A DNA stretch of 64,000 bases, taken from IMG/VR virus record IMGVR_UViG_3300031111_000001, positions 1 to 64,000 of that record. The stretch is one strand, 5' to 3'. A model generated the notes under the pieces. That model was given only the letters and a program-made list of their open reading frames with translations, was not told the origin of the DNA and ran no database searches. The DNA is from a virus. How positions within the stretch are numbered: position 1 is the first letter of the stretch; each line of letters begins with the position of its first letter. Made by a program: the position numbers and the translations under genes. Below, piece after piece: positions 4,057 through 55,265 of this stretch.

Positions 4057-4583
4057 GCGAAACCGAAATCAACGTCGGCAAACTGGTCCCGGTGCCCATG
4101 GAAGGCACTATCGAGGAAACCTGCCGGGCCATCCTCCAGCGCGAGTTCCCCGGATGGGAATGGATGGAGTACAGCGATGGCCTGGAAAACCTGAACGAAG
4201 CCGTCAACGATGGCCCGTACTACTTCGCCCACGACGACAAGCTCTACCGCGTCGAAATGGAGATCGAGGACACCACGGGAGGCTACGACATTGATGTCGC
4301 CACCCTGAACCCCGATGGGACCATCAGCTTCGTCCTCCAGTACTACAACGGCGGGTGTAGCTTCGACGAGGCCATGGCTGACGCCATGGGTAAGCTCCGG
4401 GTGCCCGACGAGAAGGATCAGGAATCCCGCGTCTTGCCCATCTGCACGGCTTACGAGCAGGGCTATGGAGACGGCTACCAGGGCAAGCTGCACAAGCAGA
4501 ATCCCTATGCCGTGGGATCGGACTGCGCCTGGGCGTGGGACTACGGCAAGGCCGAAGGCATCGCCAATGGGAACCCCCAATAA
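4053..4583 (+). CDS. hypothetical protein
   Basis: 176-aa ORF, GGAG RBS; C-terminal AYEQGYGDG..NPY..WDYG module common in phage early proteins. Confidence 0.75.
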   Translation: MSETEINVGKLVPVPMEGTIEETCRAILQREFPGWEWMEYSDGLENLNEAVNDGPYYFAHDDKLYRVEMEIEDTTGGYDIDVATLNPDGTISFVLQYYNGGCSFDEAMADAMGKLRVPDEKDQESRVLPICTAYEQGYGDGYQGKLHKQNPYAVGSDCAWAWDYGKAEGIANGNPQ

Positions 4584-4700: not shown

Positions 4701-4909
4701 TGATCGCTATCATCATGCAATTCATCGGCTGTGCCACCTTAATCGGCGTTGGCGTCTGGATGGCCTATGGCGGGCTCCAGATCACACGGTTTGCCGCACT
4801 CATGACCGGCGAAGCCTGTTGGGAGGGTTTTGTGCTTTTGATCGCAGGTCTTGCTCTGCTTTGCGGCGGATTCTACGGCCTTCCTCTCACCATCACCTTT
4901 GGAGGCTGA
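4700..4909 (+). CDS. small membrane protein (2 TM)
   Basis: hydrophobic 69-aa ORF, TAATG coupling. Confidence 0.65.
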   Translation: MIAIIMQFIGCATLIGVGVWMAYGGLQITRFAALMTGEACWEGFVLLIAGLALLCGGFYGLPLTITFGG

Positions 4910-50488: not shown

Positions 50489-51112
50489 CTAGGGGGTCTG
50501 GACGGCCATGGTATTGTCGCCAGTCCCACGGTAAGCCGTGGTGTAAGCCGACATGGTTGCGCCGGAAGCGATCAGGCCACTGCTGCTGCGGTCAAAGGAC
50601 GCGCACTTGGAAGCGTTCAGGCCCAGCTTCGCGCCCTCGGCCTTCCCGTCGATCCCGGCAGCGAGGAAGATGAAGTCCCAATTGTACTTCTCCTTCTGGT
50701 GCCGGACCATCTCGTTGATGATGGTCGCGCCGTACTCGCGAGACTGATTCTCATGGCCGTCCGTGAGGACCACGAACAGGACGCGGGCGGGCCGCTCGTC
50801 TTCGGGCAAAGCGTTCAGTTCGTTGCCCACCCTGGTGATCGTGATGCCAACGGCGTCCAGCAGGGCGGTCATGCCACGGGGCTGGTACGTCTCGCCCAGG
50901 ATCAGGTCGGGGCAGTCCTTGATGGGCTTACGGGTGTAGATCACCTCCACCACATCATCGAACTGCGTGAGGGACAGTTCGGCCTCGTCGGGGCCGGTGC
51001 GCTGTTCGTCGAGGAAACGGTTGAACATCCCCACGGCCTCCGGGGCAATGCTGCCCATGGAGCCAGAACGGTCCAGAATCACGTTGATCAGAGTCATGTC
51101 TTTCATGGTCAA
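50489..51112 (-). CDS. standalone vWA-domain protein
   Basis: ILDRSGSM MIDAS, PRGMTALLDA, LTDGHENQS, WDFIFLAA. Confidence 0.9.
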   Translation of the reverse strand: MTMKDMTLINVILDRSGSMGSIAPEAVGMFNRFLDEQRTGPDEAELSLTQFDDVVEVIYTRKPIKDCPDLILGETYQPRGMTALLDAVGITITRVGNELNALPEDERPARVLFVVLTDGHENQSREYGATIINEMVRHQKEKYNWDFIFLAAGIDGKAEGAKLGLNASKCASFDRSSSGLIASGATMSAYTTAYRGTGDNTMAVQTP

Positions 51113-52500
51113 TTGTCCATCCAGTTGTACTTGTTATTCATGATGGCCTTGAGCATGACGTTGGTGGGCGTCAGGCTTTCCAGACCCGCTTCCATGATCG
51201 CCTTCATCACCGCCGGGGAGTACCCGCTGACGAGGGCAGCACCAGACTGATGCTGGCGCACGGGACAGTTGCCGGGCCGGGCGTTCAGGTTCCAAAACAC
51301 GACGTTCGGAAGCTCGTAGCCGTACCGGGTAAACTCGGCAGTAGCGTTGGTGAAAAGGTGGTTGCTGCCCGTGACACAGGAATCGAACTCCATGTCGGAG
51401 AAGATGATCAGCGTCCTGGGCATGTCCTCGGCGGGCACCTTATTCCCGACGGCCACCTTGAGGATTTCTCCCATGGCCTTCTCGATGTTGGTGTTCATGC
51501 CCCAATGGGCACGCTCCAGATTCGCCTTTTTGGCAATGATGTCTCGACCATGCAGGGTGTGGAACTGCGGATTCTTAGAAAAGGTCAAGACCAAGTCCTT
51601 GAAGGCCCCGGTCTGCCGGGTGGCGATGAACAACCCCATGGCAACAGAAACGTCGAGGGCAGAGAGATTGGGAGAAATCTGCGCCCACATGGACCCGGAG
51701 ACATCAACCATCGGCAGCACGCCGTTCAGGTTGGCCGGGAACGGAATGGCATCCCACTGCGCCTGGACGGCCTTCCGCTGCGTGCCCTTCAGCACGTCGT
51801 GGGGGAAGATTGCACTGGCGTTGATCTTGGCCTCGCCCTTCTCCAGAGCGTTCAGGTACGCACCGTAGCGGTCACCGCAGTTGCGGGTGAACGCCTTCTG
51901 GTAACGGGCCGACGCGACGGACGGAACGTGGTTGAACTCGATCTTGTCCCACTCCCCGGCGCACATCTTCTGCTCGACGGTGTTGGACAGGCCCACCAGC
52001 AGCTTGCGATACTGCTTGGGGGCCAGACCCATGAACTCGCGCAGGGCCACGGCATTGTCGCCCTTGCGGGGCATCCATTTGGCACACAGGCCGTCACCGG
52101 CTTCCAGTGCCTCGGCGATGAAGGGGAAGATGTCGTGTTCGCGCAGTTCGTCGTCCCCGAAGTGCAGGAGGTCATCCCAACGGCCCACGACGGGCACCAG
52201 CGGGATCAGTTTTTCGACCACTTCGGGCCGCTCATGGCAGAGCGTGTCCATCAGGTTGCGGAAGGTCTGGCGCTCACCGGCACCACCACGGCAGTCTCGC
52301 GCCCAGAGCAGGGTGCGGATGGCCTTGTCCTCGTCCGCGACAAAAGCGTCCCAAAAGGGATCGGAAACGTCCTTGCCACGGCTGGCCCCGATCATGAAGA
52401 ACAGATCGACAAGCGGGTTCAGGGTGGTGGAGAACGCCTCCATTCCGTTGGCAGTGTGGGAGTCACGGATGTTGTTGACGCCATTGACAAACTGGTTCAT
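51109..52500 (-). CDS. DUF2828-type helical + vWA protein (Ro60/TROVE-like architecture)
   Basis: LVDLFF, RDCRGGAGER, GRWDDL, CAKWMPR, VPSVAS; DVSGSM MIDAS, SDMEFD, VVFWNL, VSGYSP. Confidence 0.85.
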   Translation of the reverse strand: MNQFVNGVNNIRDSHTANGMEAFSTTLNPLVDLFFMIGASRGKDVSDPFWDAFVADEDKAIRTLLWARDCRGGAGERQTFRNLMDTLCHERPEVVEKLIPLVPVVGRWDDLLHFGDDELREHDIFPFIAEALEAGDGLCAKWMPRKGDNAVALREFMGLAPKQYRKLLVGLSNTVEQKMCAGEWDKIEFNHVPSVASARYQKAFTRNCGDRYGAYLNALEKGEAKINASAIFPHDVLKGTQRKAVQAQWDAIPFPANLNGVLPMVDVSGSMWAQISPNLSALDVSVAMGLFIATRQTGAFKDLVLTFSKNPQFHTLHGRDIIAKKANLERAHWGMNTNIEKAMGEILKVAVGNKVPAEDMPRTLIIFSDMEFDSCVTGSNHLFTNATAEFTRYGYELPNVVFWNLNARPGNCPVRQHQSGAALVSGYSPAVMKAIMEAGLESLTPTNVMLKAIMNNKYNWMDN

Positions 52501-52545
52501 CTTGTTTTCCTTTTCAATGGAGGTTGTAATTGCTGAAATGAACCA
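52491..52545 (-). promoter_or_regulatory. Y-stem-like operator hairpin sequestering the start codon of 51109-52500
   Basis: UGGUUCAU-UUCAGCAA...RBS...AUGAACCA-GU. Confidence 0.7.
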
Positions 52546-52560
52546 TAGACAGTGGACAAT

Positions 52561-52705
52561 ACAGAGTGGTGGGTTTGCATACGCGCTCTACCAGACTAAG
52601 CTACATCCCCCTGGCCCGAAGGCTTTAGTGTCGGGAGACGACAGGATTTGAACCTGCGACCTCGTCCTTCATATGGATTGCGGTTTTAGTTGCTGAAACC
52701 ACTCT
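52561..52705 (-). ncRNA. Y-RNA-like unit 1 with circularly permuted tRNA module (T-AS-D)
   Basis: AGAGUGGU/ACCACUCU stem + UUCAGCAA; GCAGG-UUCAAAU-CCUGU T arm; closed acceptor; GCUU-AGUCUGGUA-GAGC D arm. Confidence 0.75.
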
Positions 52706-52712
52706 AAAAGAA

Positions 52713-52773
52713 GCGGGATGGATAACTTGAATGAATCCATTTCATTTTGTTGTTTGATTGCTGAAACCATCCC
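52713..52773 (-). ncRNA. Y-RNA-like unit 2 (short)
   Basis: GGGAUGG/CCAUCCC stem + UUUCAGCAA. Confidence 0.65.
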
Positions 52774-52780
52774 AAACAAT

Positions 52781-52961
52781 ACGGAGTGGGTTCTGTAATG
52801 CCCCTAGTGTATGGGGCCTCACCAGTGGCATCGGATGTGCCTTACAGTACGGCAAGCGAACTGGTGCCGGATTCCCACCGGATGCTCAGATTGCATTATG
52901 GATTTCAGTTCTCAAGAGACGTTGTTCCCGTGTTTTCTTGTAGAAGACTGAACCCACTCCG
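52781..52961 (-). ncRNA. Y-RNA-like unit 3 with divergent permuted tRNA-like module
   Basis: 12-bp CGGAGUGGGUUC stem; CCGG-UGGGAAU-CCGG, CACCAGU/ACUGGUG, GCCCC/GGGGC arms. Confidence 0.65.
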
Positions 52962-52967
52962 AAAGAA

Positions 52968-53099
52968 ACGGAGTACAGTTTTTGCATTACAAAGGTTCTA
53001 CCAGTTGAACTACCTCCCGGTACTGTGGTTGGTCGGGAGGGGTGGACTTGAACCACCAACCGTTTGTTCCTATTGCGTTTGGCTTGCTGCATGTACTCC
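52968..53099 (-). ncRNA. Y-RNA-like unit 4 with circularly permuted tRNA module
   Basis: GGAGUACA/UGUACUCC stem + UGCAGCAA; GGUGG-UUCAAGU-CCACC; CCUCCCG-ACCA..-CGGGAGG; GUUC-AACUGGUA-GAAC. Confidence 0.78.
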
Positions 53100-53106
53100 A
53101 AAAATT

Positions 53107-53183
53107 TGTCGAGAGGTGCCGGAATTGAACCGACGTTGCCGGGTAAGGCCGCCCAGTATCCTCGCCAACTGGATGAACCTCTC
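53107..53183 (-). tRNA. aberrant tRNA-like RNA with 8-nt anticodon loop (identity undetermined)
   Basis: intact acceptor, D and T arms; loop CGGCCUUA; 3' end G-ACA. Confidence 0.65.
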
Positions 53184-53188
53184 GATTC

Positions 53189-53264
53189 TGGGGAGATCGG
53201 GCAGAATCGAACTTCCACTCCACGGGTCACAACCGTGTGCTTTGACCATTAAGCTACGAACTCC
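53189..53264 (-). tRNA. tRNA-His(GUG)
   Basis: G-1:C73, loop UUGUGAC, CCA. Confidence 0.88.
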
Positions 53265-53284
53265 ATAACGATCCCCCAAAAAAA

Positions 53285-53350
53285 ACAGGATGGGCTACTT
53301 GTCAGGTGGTTAGACCAGAGTTTTTCGCATTTGTTTGCTGAATCCATCCT
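53285..53350 (-). ncRNA. Y-RNA-like unit 5 (short)
   Basis: AGGAUGG/CCAUCCU stem + AUUCAGCAA; 3' GU. Confidence 0.65.
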
Positions 53351-53356
53351 AGCGAT

Positions 53357-53414
53357 ACAGAGTGCTTACGTTTTTGCTTAACAGGCAATTGTTTTTGGTT
53401 GCTGAATGCACTCT
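53357..53414 (-). ncRNA. Y-RNA-like unit 6 (short)
   Basis: AGAGUGC/GCACUCU stem + AUUCAGCAA; 3' GU. Confidence 0.65.
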
Positions 53415-53696
53415 TAAAGATTCGCGGCCATACATCCAGTGGTTCGCGATACCACTACATCATGATGCAGGGAGGGTCCGTTTCCATCACCGTTGTGTCA
53501 CCGGGGCTCTACGGTGCGAGTGGGTGAACTATTCGCACCGTACCGCAAAAGTGGTGCGGCTTGCCTACCGCACTTGCCGGGGCTTAAACCGGATCAGGAT
53601 AATCGGGAGCAGATCGGCCACATGCGCGGGCCATAGCGTTCAGCTTTCAACTTCCTTTTGCTGCTCAACCGATTTTCGTTTACTCCTTTCATCGAG

Positions 53697-53728
53697 TTAG
53701 TCGTACCGACGCCCGTGTCTGGATGAAT
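53697..53728 (-). promoter_or_regulatory. 32-bp repeat copy 1, putative phage-specific promoter
   Basis: identical to 57072-57103; AT-rich tract upstream on - strand. Confidence 0.6.
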
Positions 53729-54017
53729 GATTTTCGAAGTTTTTGAATATTTTTGAATAAAATTTAGCTGCCAAATTTGCTTTGCATTACCGCAAGAGCG
53801 GCAATAAAGAAAATCATACCAATGAAGAATATCGGAGCAGAGCCTCCAGGGATCACCAATTCGGTTCCGCAATCAATTAAAATACTATACATTTGGCTTC
53901 CTTGTTGTCTTAGTAGGCTGGCGATCTACCACAAGGAGTTGGAACCATAATTCCAACCCCTTGGGGTGGCCGGGAATATCCCGTCCCGGCCAATCGGGCT
54001 TCGGAGGAGGGTGTGGG

Positions 54018-55265
54018 CTACTTGCCCACGGTGGGGTCCAGGGCGAGTTTCTTCGCCATGTCCACCTGAATCATGTTCAGGATGCCCATGATCTCGCTGT
54101 CGGAGCCGGTGCCACCGTTGGCACCACCGGACACGATCACGGTGTCGGGCACCTGACGCTTGGCGATGGCTCCAGCCATGTTCGCATAGACGCGCTCGTA
54201 GGTCGCCAGCTTCTTGTCGAGGGCACCGTCAGCGGCGATCCGCATCTTTGCGGCCTGGGCATCACCCTCGGCACGCAGAATGGTGGCCTTTTTGTACTCT
54301 TCAGCGGCCTGACGATCCAGCTTGGCGACTTCCAGTTCCTGCGCGGCCTTGGTTTCGGCGACTTCCTTGGCCTGTTCGGCCTCGGTCACCTTCTGGGCCT
54401 TGATGACCTTCTGCGCCCACTCGGCCTTGGCCGCATCGGCAGCACCCTGACGCTCGGTGGTCAGCTTATCCTGCTCGGCCTTCTTGGCATTGGCGATGGC
54501 GGTCTGCACGTCCATGGTGATCTTGCGCTGCTGCTCGATCTGGGCCTGGACCTTGTCGTCGTACCGGATGTCGTTCACTGCGAAGTTGTAGAAAGTGATG
54601 CCAAACGCGGCGATAGGCGACTCTTCCTGACGCTTCCAGCCGCCGGGGGACTTGGGATCGGCGATGCGTTCCGTCAGGGTGACGGTCTTCGTCTCGCCGG
54701 TCAGTTCGTCCGTGATCTTCGTGTCACGGGTGGTGGTCGCATAGATGCCGAACTTGGCCTGATCCTCGATGAAGTTTACCAGTTGGCTGCGCTTCTCGGC
54801 GTAGGACTCGCGAGACGACACCAGCGGGCCGGATGCGAAGATCGCCTTGCGCACGACGGTGCGGATCAGGTTGTCCTCGATACCGGGCATGGAGCGGTAC
54901 TTTTCGTGCAGCTTCAGCATGTTGACGGGGTCAACGGGCAGATCGTAGCGCACGGAGCCGCTGACCATGGCCGTACCGGCATCGTTGAAGGTGATCTTCA
55001 GGGACTGGTCGGCGGTGCCGCCCTCGTCGGTCTGGGACGAGAACCAAAGCTGGTTCGACTTGGTGTAGTAGGTCAGGTCACCGAAAAGCTGGGCCTTGGG
55101 GCCAGCGGTAACCCATGGCGTCAGTTCGCCCGTGGTGATGGCCTGCTTGACACAGATGTTTCCGGCAGGGACATTCTCGATCAGGGAGCCGCCCATGGCG
55201 ACGACCACGACCAGAATGATGCCGAACACAGCGGCCATCACACCCTTCTTGGGGGTGAATTTCAT
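54018..55265 (-). CDS. SPFH/band-7 (prohibitin-like) membrane protein
   Basis: N-terminal TM, ITFNDAG..SGSVRY, AE-rich coiled coil. Confidence 0.85.
   Translation of the reverse strand: MKFTPKKGVMAAVFGIILVVVVAMGGSLIENVPAGNICVKQAITTGELTPWVTAGPKAQLFGDLTYYTKSNQLWFSSQTDEGGTADQSLKITFNDAGTAMVSGSVRYDLPVDPVNMLKLHEKYRSMPGIEDNLIRTVVRKAIFASGPLVSSRESYAEKRSQLVNFIEDQAKFGIYATTTRDTKITDELTGETKTVTLTERIADPKSPGGWKRQEESPIAAFGITFYNFAVNDIRYDDKVQAQIEQQRKITMDVQTAIANAKKAEQDKLTTERQGAADAAKAEWAQKVIKAQKVTEAEQAKEVAETKAAQELEVAKLDRQAAEEYKKATILRAEGDAQAAKMRIAADGALDKKLATYERVYANMAGAIAKRQVPDTVIVSGGANGGTGSDSEIMGILNMIQVDMAKKLALDPTVGK

What the first reader, a model, noticed from the sequence alone, without database searches (positions are those of the whole stretch)
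52491..52545. The same RNA motif occludes the Ro-like gene's own start codon (autoregulatory switch)
A seventh copy of the motif lies in the mRNA leader: UGGUUCAU-UUCAGCAA-UUACAACCUCCAUUGAAAAGGAAAACAAG-AUGAACCA-GU. Its 3' stem strand is the AUG and the first codons (AUG AAC CA), its loop holds the AAGGA RBS, and the 3' GU is preserved. Inference: excess protein binds its own mRNA and represses translation, while the array RNAs titrate it and set RNP stoichiometry. This independently links the motif to this particular protein.
Basis: partly seen in the sequence, partly recalled or inferred. Interest (0 to 1): 0.85.

Follow-up and report, generated by a model that had tools for sequence, protein, structure and literature searches.

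The report
Ro-like gene leader mimics partner RNAs
The ribosome-binding site and start codon of a phage gene for a Ro60-like RNA-binding protein lie inside a copy of the small-RNA module carried by the neighbouring partner RNAs, which probably lets the protein switch off its own synthesis; many related phages keep such a copy right beside the ribosome-binding site.

Summary
An 8-bp stem (UGGUUCAU/AUGAACCA) is followed at once by UUCAGCAA. The AAGGA ribosome-binding site lies in the loop, the AUG and codons 2-3 form the 3' strand, and GU follows.

A covariance model built without this copy finds it as the only non-seed hit in the 64-kb window (38.9 bits, E about 1e-8). The gene (DUF2828+DUF7788) folds like Ro60.

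The motif accompanies this gene in more than 100 phage loci, always on the gene's strand, and its stem covaries strongly.

In homologues, the last copy in about 46% of dereplicated loci ends 12-25 nt before the AUG, against the ribosome-binding site, but does not pair with the start codon. Only one other locus (L114) encloses the initiation region as this window does. In one clade, bare hairpins with no RNA body alternate with full tRNA-like RNAs at this position.

Autoregulation by operator mimicry is therefore plausible (about 0.5) but unproven. Dense packing of a processed RNA array is the main rival.

In passing: Rfam's Dictyostelium Class I RNA model repeatedly picks out these phage RNAs below its threshold. 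First readers of this scan noted the same stretch twice more, on the same genome only.

The parts
52491..52545 (-). Leader copy of the stem-UUCAGCAA-...-stem-GU module. It encloses the ribosome-binding site (52508-52512). Its 3' strand is the AUG plus codons 2-3 (52493-52500).
   Evidence: Sequence. Covariance model hit at 52489-52546, 38.9 bits, E 1.2e-8. The hairpin is kept in the 291-nt context fold.
51109..52500 (-). Gene for a 463-aa Ro60-like protein: a helical-repeat ring plus a vWA domain with a DxSxS MIDAS motif.
   Evidence: Pfam DUF2828 (2e-23) and DUF7788 (1e-45). AlphaFold2 model with pLDDT 91, pTM 0.90. The top 12 PDB fold matches are all Ro60 (9kop, 1yvr, 2i91, 2nvo), TM 0.47-0.65. 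D266, S268 and S270 are invariant.
53355..53415 (-). Array copy A, short form of about 60 nt.
   Evidence: R1 57 bits. Rfam Dicty_Class_I_RNA 25.2 bits.
53283..53351 (-). Array copy B, short form.
   Evidence: R1 52.1 bits.
53189..53263 (-). tRNA-His inside the array.
   Evidence: ARAGORN and Rfam tRNA, 55 bits.
52969..53100 (-). Array copy D. A 9-bp closing stem, UGCAGCAA, and a tRNA-like (YrlA-like) body.
   Evidence: Descriptor scan. Rfam YrlA 28.9 bits, below the threshold of 69.
52783..52960 (-). Array copy E. A degenerate motif (UUCAGUC) with an 11-bp closing stem followed by GUAU.
   Evidence: Read from the sequence. Not found by R1.
52711..52774 (-). Array copy F, short form.
   Evidence: R1 50.2 bits.
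52562..52706 (-). Array copy G. Closing stem, UUCAGCAA, and a tRNA-like (YrlA-like) body. It ends 16 nt before the leader copy.
   Evidence: Descriptor scan. Rfam YrlA 29 bits. Its closing stem is kept in the context fold.
53697..53774 (-). Promoter-like region upstream of the array. No sigma-70-like promoter or terminator was found between it and the gene on this strand.
   Evidence: Consensus scan: TTGGCA-17-AATATT at 53774-53746. A first-reader note describes a phage-specific promoter motif at about 53697-53726; I did not test it.
50489..51112 (-). Second, small vWA-domain gene directly after the Ro-like gene. The ORF as listed (TTG at 51112) overlaps the Ro-like gene's stop codon; an in-frame ATG follows two codons on, at 51106.
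   Evidence: Pfam VWA, 3.9e-5. ORF list and sequence.

Best explanation
The leader element is a cis-acting copy, on the mRNA itself, of the module shared by the partner RNAs of this Ro60-like protein. That module is a 7-8 bp closing stem, then (U)UCAGCAA directly after the 5' strand, then G(U) after the 3' strand.

The array and the gene are probably one transcript. When free protein exceeds its RNA partners, it binds the leader copy. In this phage that clamps a hairpin holding the ribosome-binding site in its loop and the AUG in its stem, so 30S binding is blocked and synthesis of the protein falls. The array RNAs compete for the same protein and relieve the block.

Shown:
- The element is a statistically secure member of the RNA family.
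- It covers the initiation region.
- The RNA family is specific to this protein family.
- The protein has the Ro60 fold.
- Relatives keep a copy against the ribosome-binding site.

Inferred:
- The protein binds this module.
- It binds the leader version.
- The effect is repression.
- The array RNAs titrate the protein.
For: - The leader copy is the only non-seed hit of model R1 in 64 kb (38.9 bits, E 1.2e-8) and keeps every invariant position.
- Module and gene go together. All 180 hits in 160 loci lie on the gene's strand. The stem is 98.8% paired, 6 of 7 pairs show compensatory changes, and one G-C pair is invariant in 70 of 70 copies. Copies also occur in cultured phages of Aeromonas, Campylobacter, Bacillus, Listeria, Staphylococcus, Mycobacterium and E. 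coli.
- The protein has the Ro60 fold. Ro60 is known to bind the closing stem of Y RNAs (PMC4201824, PMC12135203).
- Position is conserved. In 36 of 79 dereplicated loci the last copy ends between -12 and +30 nt of the AUG, against 2% in shuffles, peaking at 12-25 nt with the ribosome-binding site 2-10 nt after the stem.
- In a 21-row clade every member has a leader copy. Ten carry a tRNA-like body, nine are bare hairpins (loop of 25 nt or less) and two are short forms, all interspersed on the tree. L104 and L106 are near-identical proteins with a bare and a full copy respectively. What persists at this site is the binding module, not the RNA body.
- Bare hairpins make up 6 of 50 leader copies against 1 of 153 other upstream copies.
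- L114, a second lineage, has the ribosome-binding site and AUG in the loop and the 3' strand in codons 12-14.
- No promoter or terminator consensus separates the array from the gene.
Against: - There is no experimental or RNA-seq evidence.
- The arrays are densely packed. Gaps between copies are 0-22 nt. A last copy ending 12-25 nt before the AUG is therefore also what plain compaction of a co-transcribed, processed array would give.
- In nearly all relatives the stem does not include the start codon, so 'occlusion of the AUG' is particular to this phage and L114.
- The closest relative (L081, 52% identity) has no leader copy. Whole clades have none, and neither do the T4-like cultured phages examined.
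- The hairpin's energy is ordinary (z -0.63).
- The leader's loop lacks the inner hairpin and the A-rich tract of the short-form RNAs, so binding strength is uncertain.
Confidence: 0.5

Rival explanations
1. The element is simply the last small RNA of a co-transcribed array that is cut into mature RNAs. Its closeness to the gene start, or overlap with it, reflects dense packing. It acts in trans like the others. Any effect on translation is a by-product, since excising it would destroy the initiation region.
For: Copies in arrays are separated by only 0-22 nt, the same order as the distance from the last copy to the ribosome-binding site. Many leader-position copies are full tRNA-like RNAs with loops of 90-106 nt, which look like functional Y-like RNAs. 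Co-transcription of Y RNAs with Ro genes is known in bacteria (PMC4201824).
Against: - In this window the copy contains the ribosome-binding site and AUG, so it cannot be released without killing the mRNA.
- Its loop has none of the features of the short-form RNAs (alignment).
- Bare hairpins without a body are enriched at the leader position. In L040, L104 and L125 they lie 450-650 nt from the nearest other model hit.
Confidence: 0.25
2. The leader copy has a positive or assembly role. Bound protein or the 5' hairpin might protect the mRNA end left after the upstream RNAs are processed. Alternatively, the nascent protein might load in cis onto its own transcript to nucleate RNP assembly. Neither would be repression.
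For: The same positional evidence as for the operator model. In most relatives the stem lies upstream of the ribosome-binding site and leaves the AUG free, the geometry of known stabilising 5' stem-loops (general knowledge).
Against: In this window and in L114 the ribosome-binding site and AUG are inside the structure. That favours inhibition when the stem is clamped.
Confidence: 0.15
3. The element is a chance or protein-independent hairpin. The resemblance to the array motif has no function.
For: The folding energy is not unusual. TTCAGCAA alone occurs 7 times in the window against 2.7 expected, with 4 of 100 shuffles as high.
Against: The model score has E about 1e-8 and there are no other false hits in 128 kb of sequence searched on both strands. 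The register of stem, motif and 3' G is the same as in the array copies. Relatives show a recurrent leader position.
Confidence: 0.05

Closest known systems
Ro60/Rsr with Y RNAs (bacterial YrlA; Thermus phage phiLo Ro60 with Yrl1/Yrl2)
   Same: A ring-shaped helical-repeat plus vWA protein (fold match) is encoded beside small RNAs whose 5' and 3' ends form a closing stem. Some of these RNAs carry a tRNA-like T-arm/D-arm body (weak YrlA hits). Phage-encoded examples are known (PMC4201824, PMC12135203).
   Different: The protein is DUF2828/DUF7788, not Pfam TROVE, and has no sequence-level match to solved Ro60 structures. The RNA module (stem, CAGCAA, CUG) is unlike the bulged Y-RNA helix or the CGAA motif. 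YrlA scores 29 bits against a threshold of 69. I found no report of a Y-RNA-like operator on a Ro60 mRNA.
Autogenous translational repression by ligand mimicry (E. coli ThrRS operator mimicking tRNA-Thr; ribosomal proteins L1, S8, S15, L20; T4 gp32 and RegA; MS2 coat protein hairpin holding the replicase AUG)
   Same: The protein's own mRNA carries a copy of its RNA ligand at the initiation region, in competition with the ribosome. The MS2-type geometry, with the AUG in the stem-loop, matches this window. The ThrRS/S15-type geometry, with the site just upstream of the ribosome-binding site, matches most relatives. This comparison rests on general knowledge.
   Different: Binding and repression are untested here. 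The competing ligands are encoded as a tandem array immediately upstream, probably on the same transcript.
Dictyostelium Class I RNAs (Rfam RF01414)
   Same: RNAs of about 55-65 nt. A 5' G pairs with the C of a 3' CUG(U). The stem is short and variable. (C)UUACAGCAA follows directly after the 5' strand, and the loop is variable and rich in A and C. Rfam's model, built from Dictyostelium only, hits the phage RNAs exactly where R1 does in 9 of 16 phage records, at 19.5-35 bits and E down to 1.3e-6 per genome.
   Different: No hit reaches the gathering score of 41.5, and the leader copy scores only 10.2 bits. The spacer differs by one nucleotide. The known Class I binder is an RRM protein, CIBP/Rnp1A (PMC7919456). 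I could not test whether Dictyostelium has a DUF2828 protein.
Bas63 gp130 (Felixounavirus Ro60-like protein, counter of the ppl defence system; preprint 10.1101/2024.10.10.617714)
   Same: Felixounavirus DUF2828 proteins are homologues at about 39% identity. They sit next to a tRNA array, and that array holds three unannotated copies of the motif in E. coli phage CL1.
   Different: There the RNAs lie downstream of the gene and there is no leader copy. I did not examine the Bas63 sequence itself.

Membership tests
Ro60 / TROVE proteins | Helical-repeat ring plus a C-terminal vWA domain with a MIDAS motif | tested here: met
   AlphaFold2 model with pLDDT 91. The top 12 PDB fold hits are all Ro60, aligned over their full length, TM 0.47-0.65. 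DxSxS is invariant.
Ro60 / TROVE proteins | Sequence signature of the TROVE domain (Pfam) or sequence similarity to solved Ro60 structures | tested here: not met
   Pfam gives only DUF2828 and DUF7788. phmmer against the PDB finds no Ro60 at E<=10. Identity in the fold alignments is 12-17%.
Y RNA / YrlA (RF02553) | Reaches the family's gathering score; Ro-binding helix plus a tRNA-like body | tested here: not met
   Copies D and G score 29 bits against a threshold of 69. The match comes only from the T and D arms. The leader copy has no tRNA-like body.
Dictyostelium Class I RNA (RF01414) | Reaches the gathering score of 41.5; 5' G, short stem, 11-nt CCUUACAGCAA, 3' CUGU | tested here: not met
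   The leader scores 10.2 bits, copy A 25.2 bits, and the best phage copy 35 bits. The layout is shared, but the score is below threshold.
Autogenous translational operator by ligand mimicry | The mRNA element resembles the protein's RNA ligand | tested here: met
   A model built without it scores it 38.9 bits, E 1.2e-8. That the array RNAs are the protein's ligands is itself an inference from co-occurrence.
Autogenous translational operator by ligand mimicry | The element overlaps the ribosome-binding site or start codon | tested here: met
   AAGGA lies in the loop and the AUG in the 3' strand. The start codon is validated by the N-terminal alignment.
Autogenous translational operator by ligand mimicry | The protein binds the element and represses its own translation | not testable with these tools
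   No protein-RNA binding tool is available, and no RNA run is listed for this phage.
Autogenous translational operator by ligand mimicry | The element is conserved at the initiation region in homologues | tested here: inconclusive
   A copy abuts the ribosome-binding site in about 46% of dereplicated loci, including bare hairpins. Only L114 encloses the AUG. Whole clades lack a leader copy, and dense packing could explain the adjacency.

The most novel reading that the evidence does not exclude
The stem-CAGCAA-CUG module is the recognition element of a large, undescribed branch of Ro60-like RNPs: DUF2828 proteins with their own Y-like RNAs. This branch would span hundreds of phages and also eukaryotes. 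The Dictyostelium Class I RNAs, so far thought unique to dictyostelids and of unknown mechanism, would be its eukaryotic members. In phages the same module, placed on the protein's mRNA, would serve as an autoregulatory operator.
Probability: 0.25. Interest if true: 0.9.

Novelty: new variant of a known kind. Interest (0 to 1): 0.7.

Why it matters
Ro60 proteins and Y RNAs are studied from bacteria to human autoimmunity. I found no report of feedback through a Y-RNA-like site on a Ro60 mRNA. If it holds, it gives a simple rule for how the ratio of protein to RNA in the particle is set.

The result also pins the protein's binding module down to about 25 nucleotides that can be tested directly.

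The protein family is common. It occurs in about 710 phage records, including Felix O1-like, Listeria P100-like and Campylobacter phages. One member (Bas63 gp130) was recently reported to counter a bacterial defence system. Knowing its partner RNAs and its control would therefore help work on phage counter-defence.

The unexpected likeness to Dictyostelium Class I RNAs offers a concrete, testable lead on a class of RNAs whose mechanism is still unknown.

Tried and rejected
- Folding energy as a test of the hairpin was uninformative (z -0.63).
- Counting TTCAGCAA alone gives only weak enrichment.
The closest locus obtained is 52% identical (L081) and has no leader copy.
- The first metagenome scan gave no answer and was repeated.
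- Sequencing runs: only the probable source DNA run was found (a marine sediment metagenome). No RNA holder is listed.
- The first statistics script read the wrong tuple field. It was corrected.
- Literature: searches for DUF2828, PF11443 and UCP015417 found nothing on RNA partners. The Avesson 2011 paper on Class I RNA-binding proteins is not held. DDB_G0281243 appears only in the preprint, without domain information.
- Looking for a Dictyostelium DUF2828 protein: the protein atlas shows only viral clusters. The search for longer proteins found plant, fungal, dinoflagellate, gregarine and cryptophyte members, but no Dictyostelium among proteins over 861 aa. This does not show absence.
- T4-like cultured phages (Citrobacter Ci1, Vibrio nt-1, Ochrobactrum OC, Erwinia Kaldavass, Aeromonas Ah1) show no model hit near the gene at E<0.1.
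- Complex prediction was not used, because it does not score protein-RNA pairs.

Full report
**Setting.** The window is part of a complete 114,562-bp virus record with direct terminal repeats. The only run found to hold it is a marine sediment metagenome. The ORF 51109..52500 on the minus strand encodes a 463-aa protein. Pfam matches it only to DUF2828 and DUF7788. An AlphaFold2 model built on 58 homologues is confident (pLDDT 91, pTM 0.90). Its 12 best PDB matches are all Ro60: Thermus phage phiLo, Xenopus, human and Deinococcus, aligned over their full length at TM 0.47-0.65 and 12-17% identity. The vWA MIDAS motif DxSxS is invariant in the family. 'Ro-like' is therefore correct at the level of fold. 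The protein is not a sequence-level TROVE member.

**The observation.**
- 5' strand UGGUUCAU at 52545-52538;
- UUCAGCAA at 52537-52530;
- a 29-nt loop with AAGGA at 52512-52508;
- 3' strand AUGAACCA at 52500-52493;
- GU at 52492-52491.

The AUG is the true start. Homologues begin M-(N/S/T)-x-F at the aligned position, and residues 16-19 are conserved.

The 900 nt upstream carry the array:
- short copies A, B and F;
- long copies D and G with tRNA-like bodies (weak YrlA hits of 29 bits);
- a degenerate copy E;
- a tRNA-His and a tRNA-like element.

**Is it more than chance?** Folding energy says nothing (z -0.63). I built a covariance model (R1) from 14 short copies found in other phages plus window copies A, B and F. 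The leader copy was left out, and only the 7-bp closing stem was given as structure. In the whole window, on both strands and at E<=10, the model returns its three seeds and one further hit. That hit is the leader copy, at 38.9 bits and E 1.2e-8 (the tool warns that E-values are rough). The leader has all eight invariant columns of the seed alignment. The hairpin also survives in the MFE and centroid folds of a 291-nt context.

**The motif belongs to this protein family.** tblastn finds homologues in about 710 phage records. I fetched 160 loci from viral and metagenome collections.
- R1 gives 180 hits at E<=0.01, all on the gene's strand. They lie just upstream or just downstream of the gene.
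- On 70 hits from dereplicated loci, the stem is 98.8% paired. Six of seven pairs show compensatory changes, and one G-C pair is invariant. That alignment is fitted to the model.
- The window's other tRNA array has no copy.
- Copies also occur in cultured phages: Aeromonas LAh_9 (eight copies), Campylobacter CP81, Bacillus Tsamsa, Listeria LMTA-148, Staphylococcus BE02, mycobacteriophage DuncansLeg, and E. coli Felixounavirus CL1. In CL1 three copies sit in unannotated gaps of the tRNA array.
- No Rfam family covers these RNAs above threshold.

I assigned start codons by alignment and scanned 79 dereplicated upstream regions with a simple descriptor: a stem of at least 7 bp, a spacer of at most 4 nt, C[ACG]GCA[AU], and a loop of 14-260 nt.
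- 49 regions have a copy within 300 nt.
- In 36 (46%) the 3' strand ends between -12 and +30 nt of the AUG, against 2% in shuffles. There is a sharp peak at 12-25 nt.
- R1 confirms this independently. In 48 of the 160 loci its hit ends 9-19 nt before the AUG, or 29 nt in one case (read).
- The usual layout is stem, G, 2-10 nt, ribosome-binding site, about 7 nt, AUG. An example is Aeromonas phage LAh_9...ACAUUCU-GAAAGGAGUUCUU-AUG.

So homologue leaders do keep a copy at the initiation region, but the stem does not pair with the start codon. The window's geometry is shifted about 25 nt downstream, so that the ribosome-binding site lies in the loop and the AUG in the stem. Only L114 shares this. 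There the ribosome-binding site and AUG are in the loop and the 3' strand lies in codons 12-14 (24.7 bits).

**Operator, or merely the last RNA of the array?** The arrays are tightly packed, with gaps of 0-22 nt. Adjacency alone therefore does not prove regulation. Three things favour a cis role:
1. In the window and in L114 the copy cannot be released without destroying the initiation region.
2. The window's leader keeps only the stem, motif and G module. It lacks the inner hairpin and the A-rich tract of the short RNAs (alignment).
3. In a well-supported clade of 21 proteins every member has a leader copy. Ten have a tRNA-like body, nine are bare hairpins with loops of 14-25 nt, and two are short forms, and these types are interspersed on the tree. 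Near-identical proteins L104 and L106 carry a bare and a full copy, with the same downstream ribosome-binding-site sequence.

Bare hairpins are enriched at the leader position: 6 of 50 against 1 of 153 other upstream copies.

Against generality, a 23-row clade has no leader copy, and neither do the Felixounavirus, mycobacteriophage and Staphylococcus phage representatives I checked, whose RNAs lie downstream of the gene. The window's nearest relative, L081, also lacks one.

**Mechanism.** The best reading is autogenous translational control by ligand mimicry. The Ro-like protein binds the module on its own mRNA and blocks 30S entry, and the array RNAs compete for the protein.
- This matches known systems: the ThrRS operator, ribosomal proteins, T4 gp32 and RegA, and the MS2 coat protein hairpin that holds the replicase AUG (general knowledge).
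- No promoter or terminator consensus separates the array from the gene, so a single transcript is likely.
- Binding, the direction of the effect, and titration are all inferred.
- I put this reading at about 0.5, a processed trans-acting RNA with incidental overlap at 0.25, a stabilising or assembly role at 0.15, and chance at 0.05.

**What is known.** Phage Ro60 with Y-like RNAs is established for TROVE-type proteins (PMC4201824, PMC12135203). A preprint reports that the Ro60-like gp130 of Felixounavirus Bas63 counters the ppl defence system, and it guesses that neighbouring tRNAs may be Y RNAs (10.1101/2024.10.10.617714). My model instead points to unannotated RNAs of about 60-75 nt between the tRNA genes. 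I found no description of the CAGCAA module, nor of a leader operator for a Ro-like gene.

**A side result.** Rfam's Dictyostelium Class I RNA model was the best non-tRNA, non-YrlA hit in the array (25.2 bits).
- Run alone, it hits the phage RNAs at exactly the R1 positions in 9 of 16 further phage records: 19.5-35 bits, E down to 1.3e-6 per genome, none above the cut-off of 41.5.
- Class I RNAs share several features: a 5' G paired to the C of a 3' CUGU, a short variable stem, CCUUACAGCAA directly after the 5' strand, and a length of about 60 nt (PMC7919456; sequences in its supplement).
- DUF2828/DUF7788 proteins exist in plants, fungi, alveolates and cryptophytes.
- One of four proteins pulled down with a Class I RNA, DDB_G0281243, has no known function.
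- I could not test whether Dictyostelium has a DUF2828 protein. This remains a lead.

**Verdict.** It is a new variant of a known kind of control, set within an RNA-protein family that appears undescribed.

Noticed in passing
window 53355-53415(-); L018 889-943 and 2925-2978; L011 2927-2982; L001 2928-2978; L030 4719-4778; L044 4727-4788; L037 4761-4817: Rfam's Dictyostelium Class I RNA model (RF01414) hits the phage DUF2828-associated RNAs at the same places as my own model. Scores are 19.5-35 bits, below the cut-off of 41.5. The layout is shared: G...C closure, UU(A)CAGCAA after the 5' strand, and a 3' CUGU. Class I RNAs are described as unique to dictyostelids.
   Followed up: partly
L165 (Escherichia phage CL1, Felixounavirus) 4212-4283, 4379-4438, 4796-4872: Three unannotated copies of the motif lie in gaps of the tRNA array just downstream of the DUF2828 gene. 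These RNAs, rather than the tRNAs, are the likely partners of the Ro60-like protein that a preprint reports as a ppl counter-defence factor in Bas63.
   Followed up: partly
L169 (Aeromonas phage LAh_9) 1396-1501; L170 (Campylobacter phage CP81) 1364-1501: Deposited annotations run through the small RNAs. The LAh_9 DUF2828 CDS starts at 1396, but homology and the ribosome-binding site place the start at 1501. CP81 'ORF140' overlaps two motif copies and is probably not a gene.
   Followed up: partly
window 54018-55265(-); L169 3052-3960; L171 1-135: An SPFH/band-7 gene sits next to the DUF2828 gene in three distant phages: this window, Aeromonas LAh_9 and mycobacteriophage DuncansLeg. RNA ligase or RtcB-type genes lie nearby in Erwinia phage Kaldavass and Listeria phage LMTA-148.
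   Followed up: no
window 53420-53680(-): About 250 nt lie between the promoter-like region and copy A. They hold GC-rich inverted repeats and a weak extra motif-like hairpin (53673-53613, 7 bp with 2 G-U pairs). No Rfam match and no explanation.
   Followed up: no
window 53110-53184(-): A tRNA-like element lies between tRNA-His and copy D. ARAGORN does not call it, and Rfam gives only a weak tRNA-Sec match (19.8 bits).
   Followed up: no
window 50489-51112(-): A small second vWA protein (207 aa as listed, DRSGSM MIDAS motif) follows the Ro-like gene. The listed TTG start overlaps that gene's stop codon, and an in-frame ATG follows two codons on. This suggests translational coupling.
   Followed up: no
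L114 1972-2040: This is the second locus where the motif encloses the initiation region. AGGAG and the AUG (2001) lie in the loop, and the 3' strand is formed by codons 12-14 (24.7 bits).
   Followed up: yes
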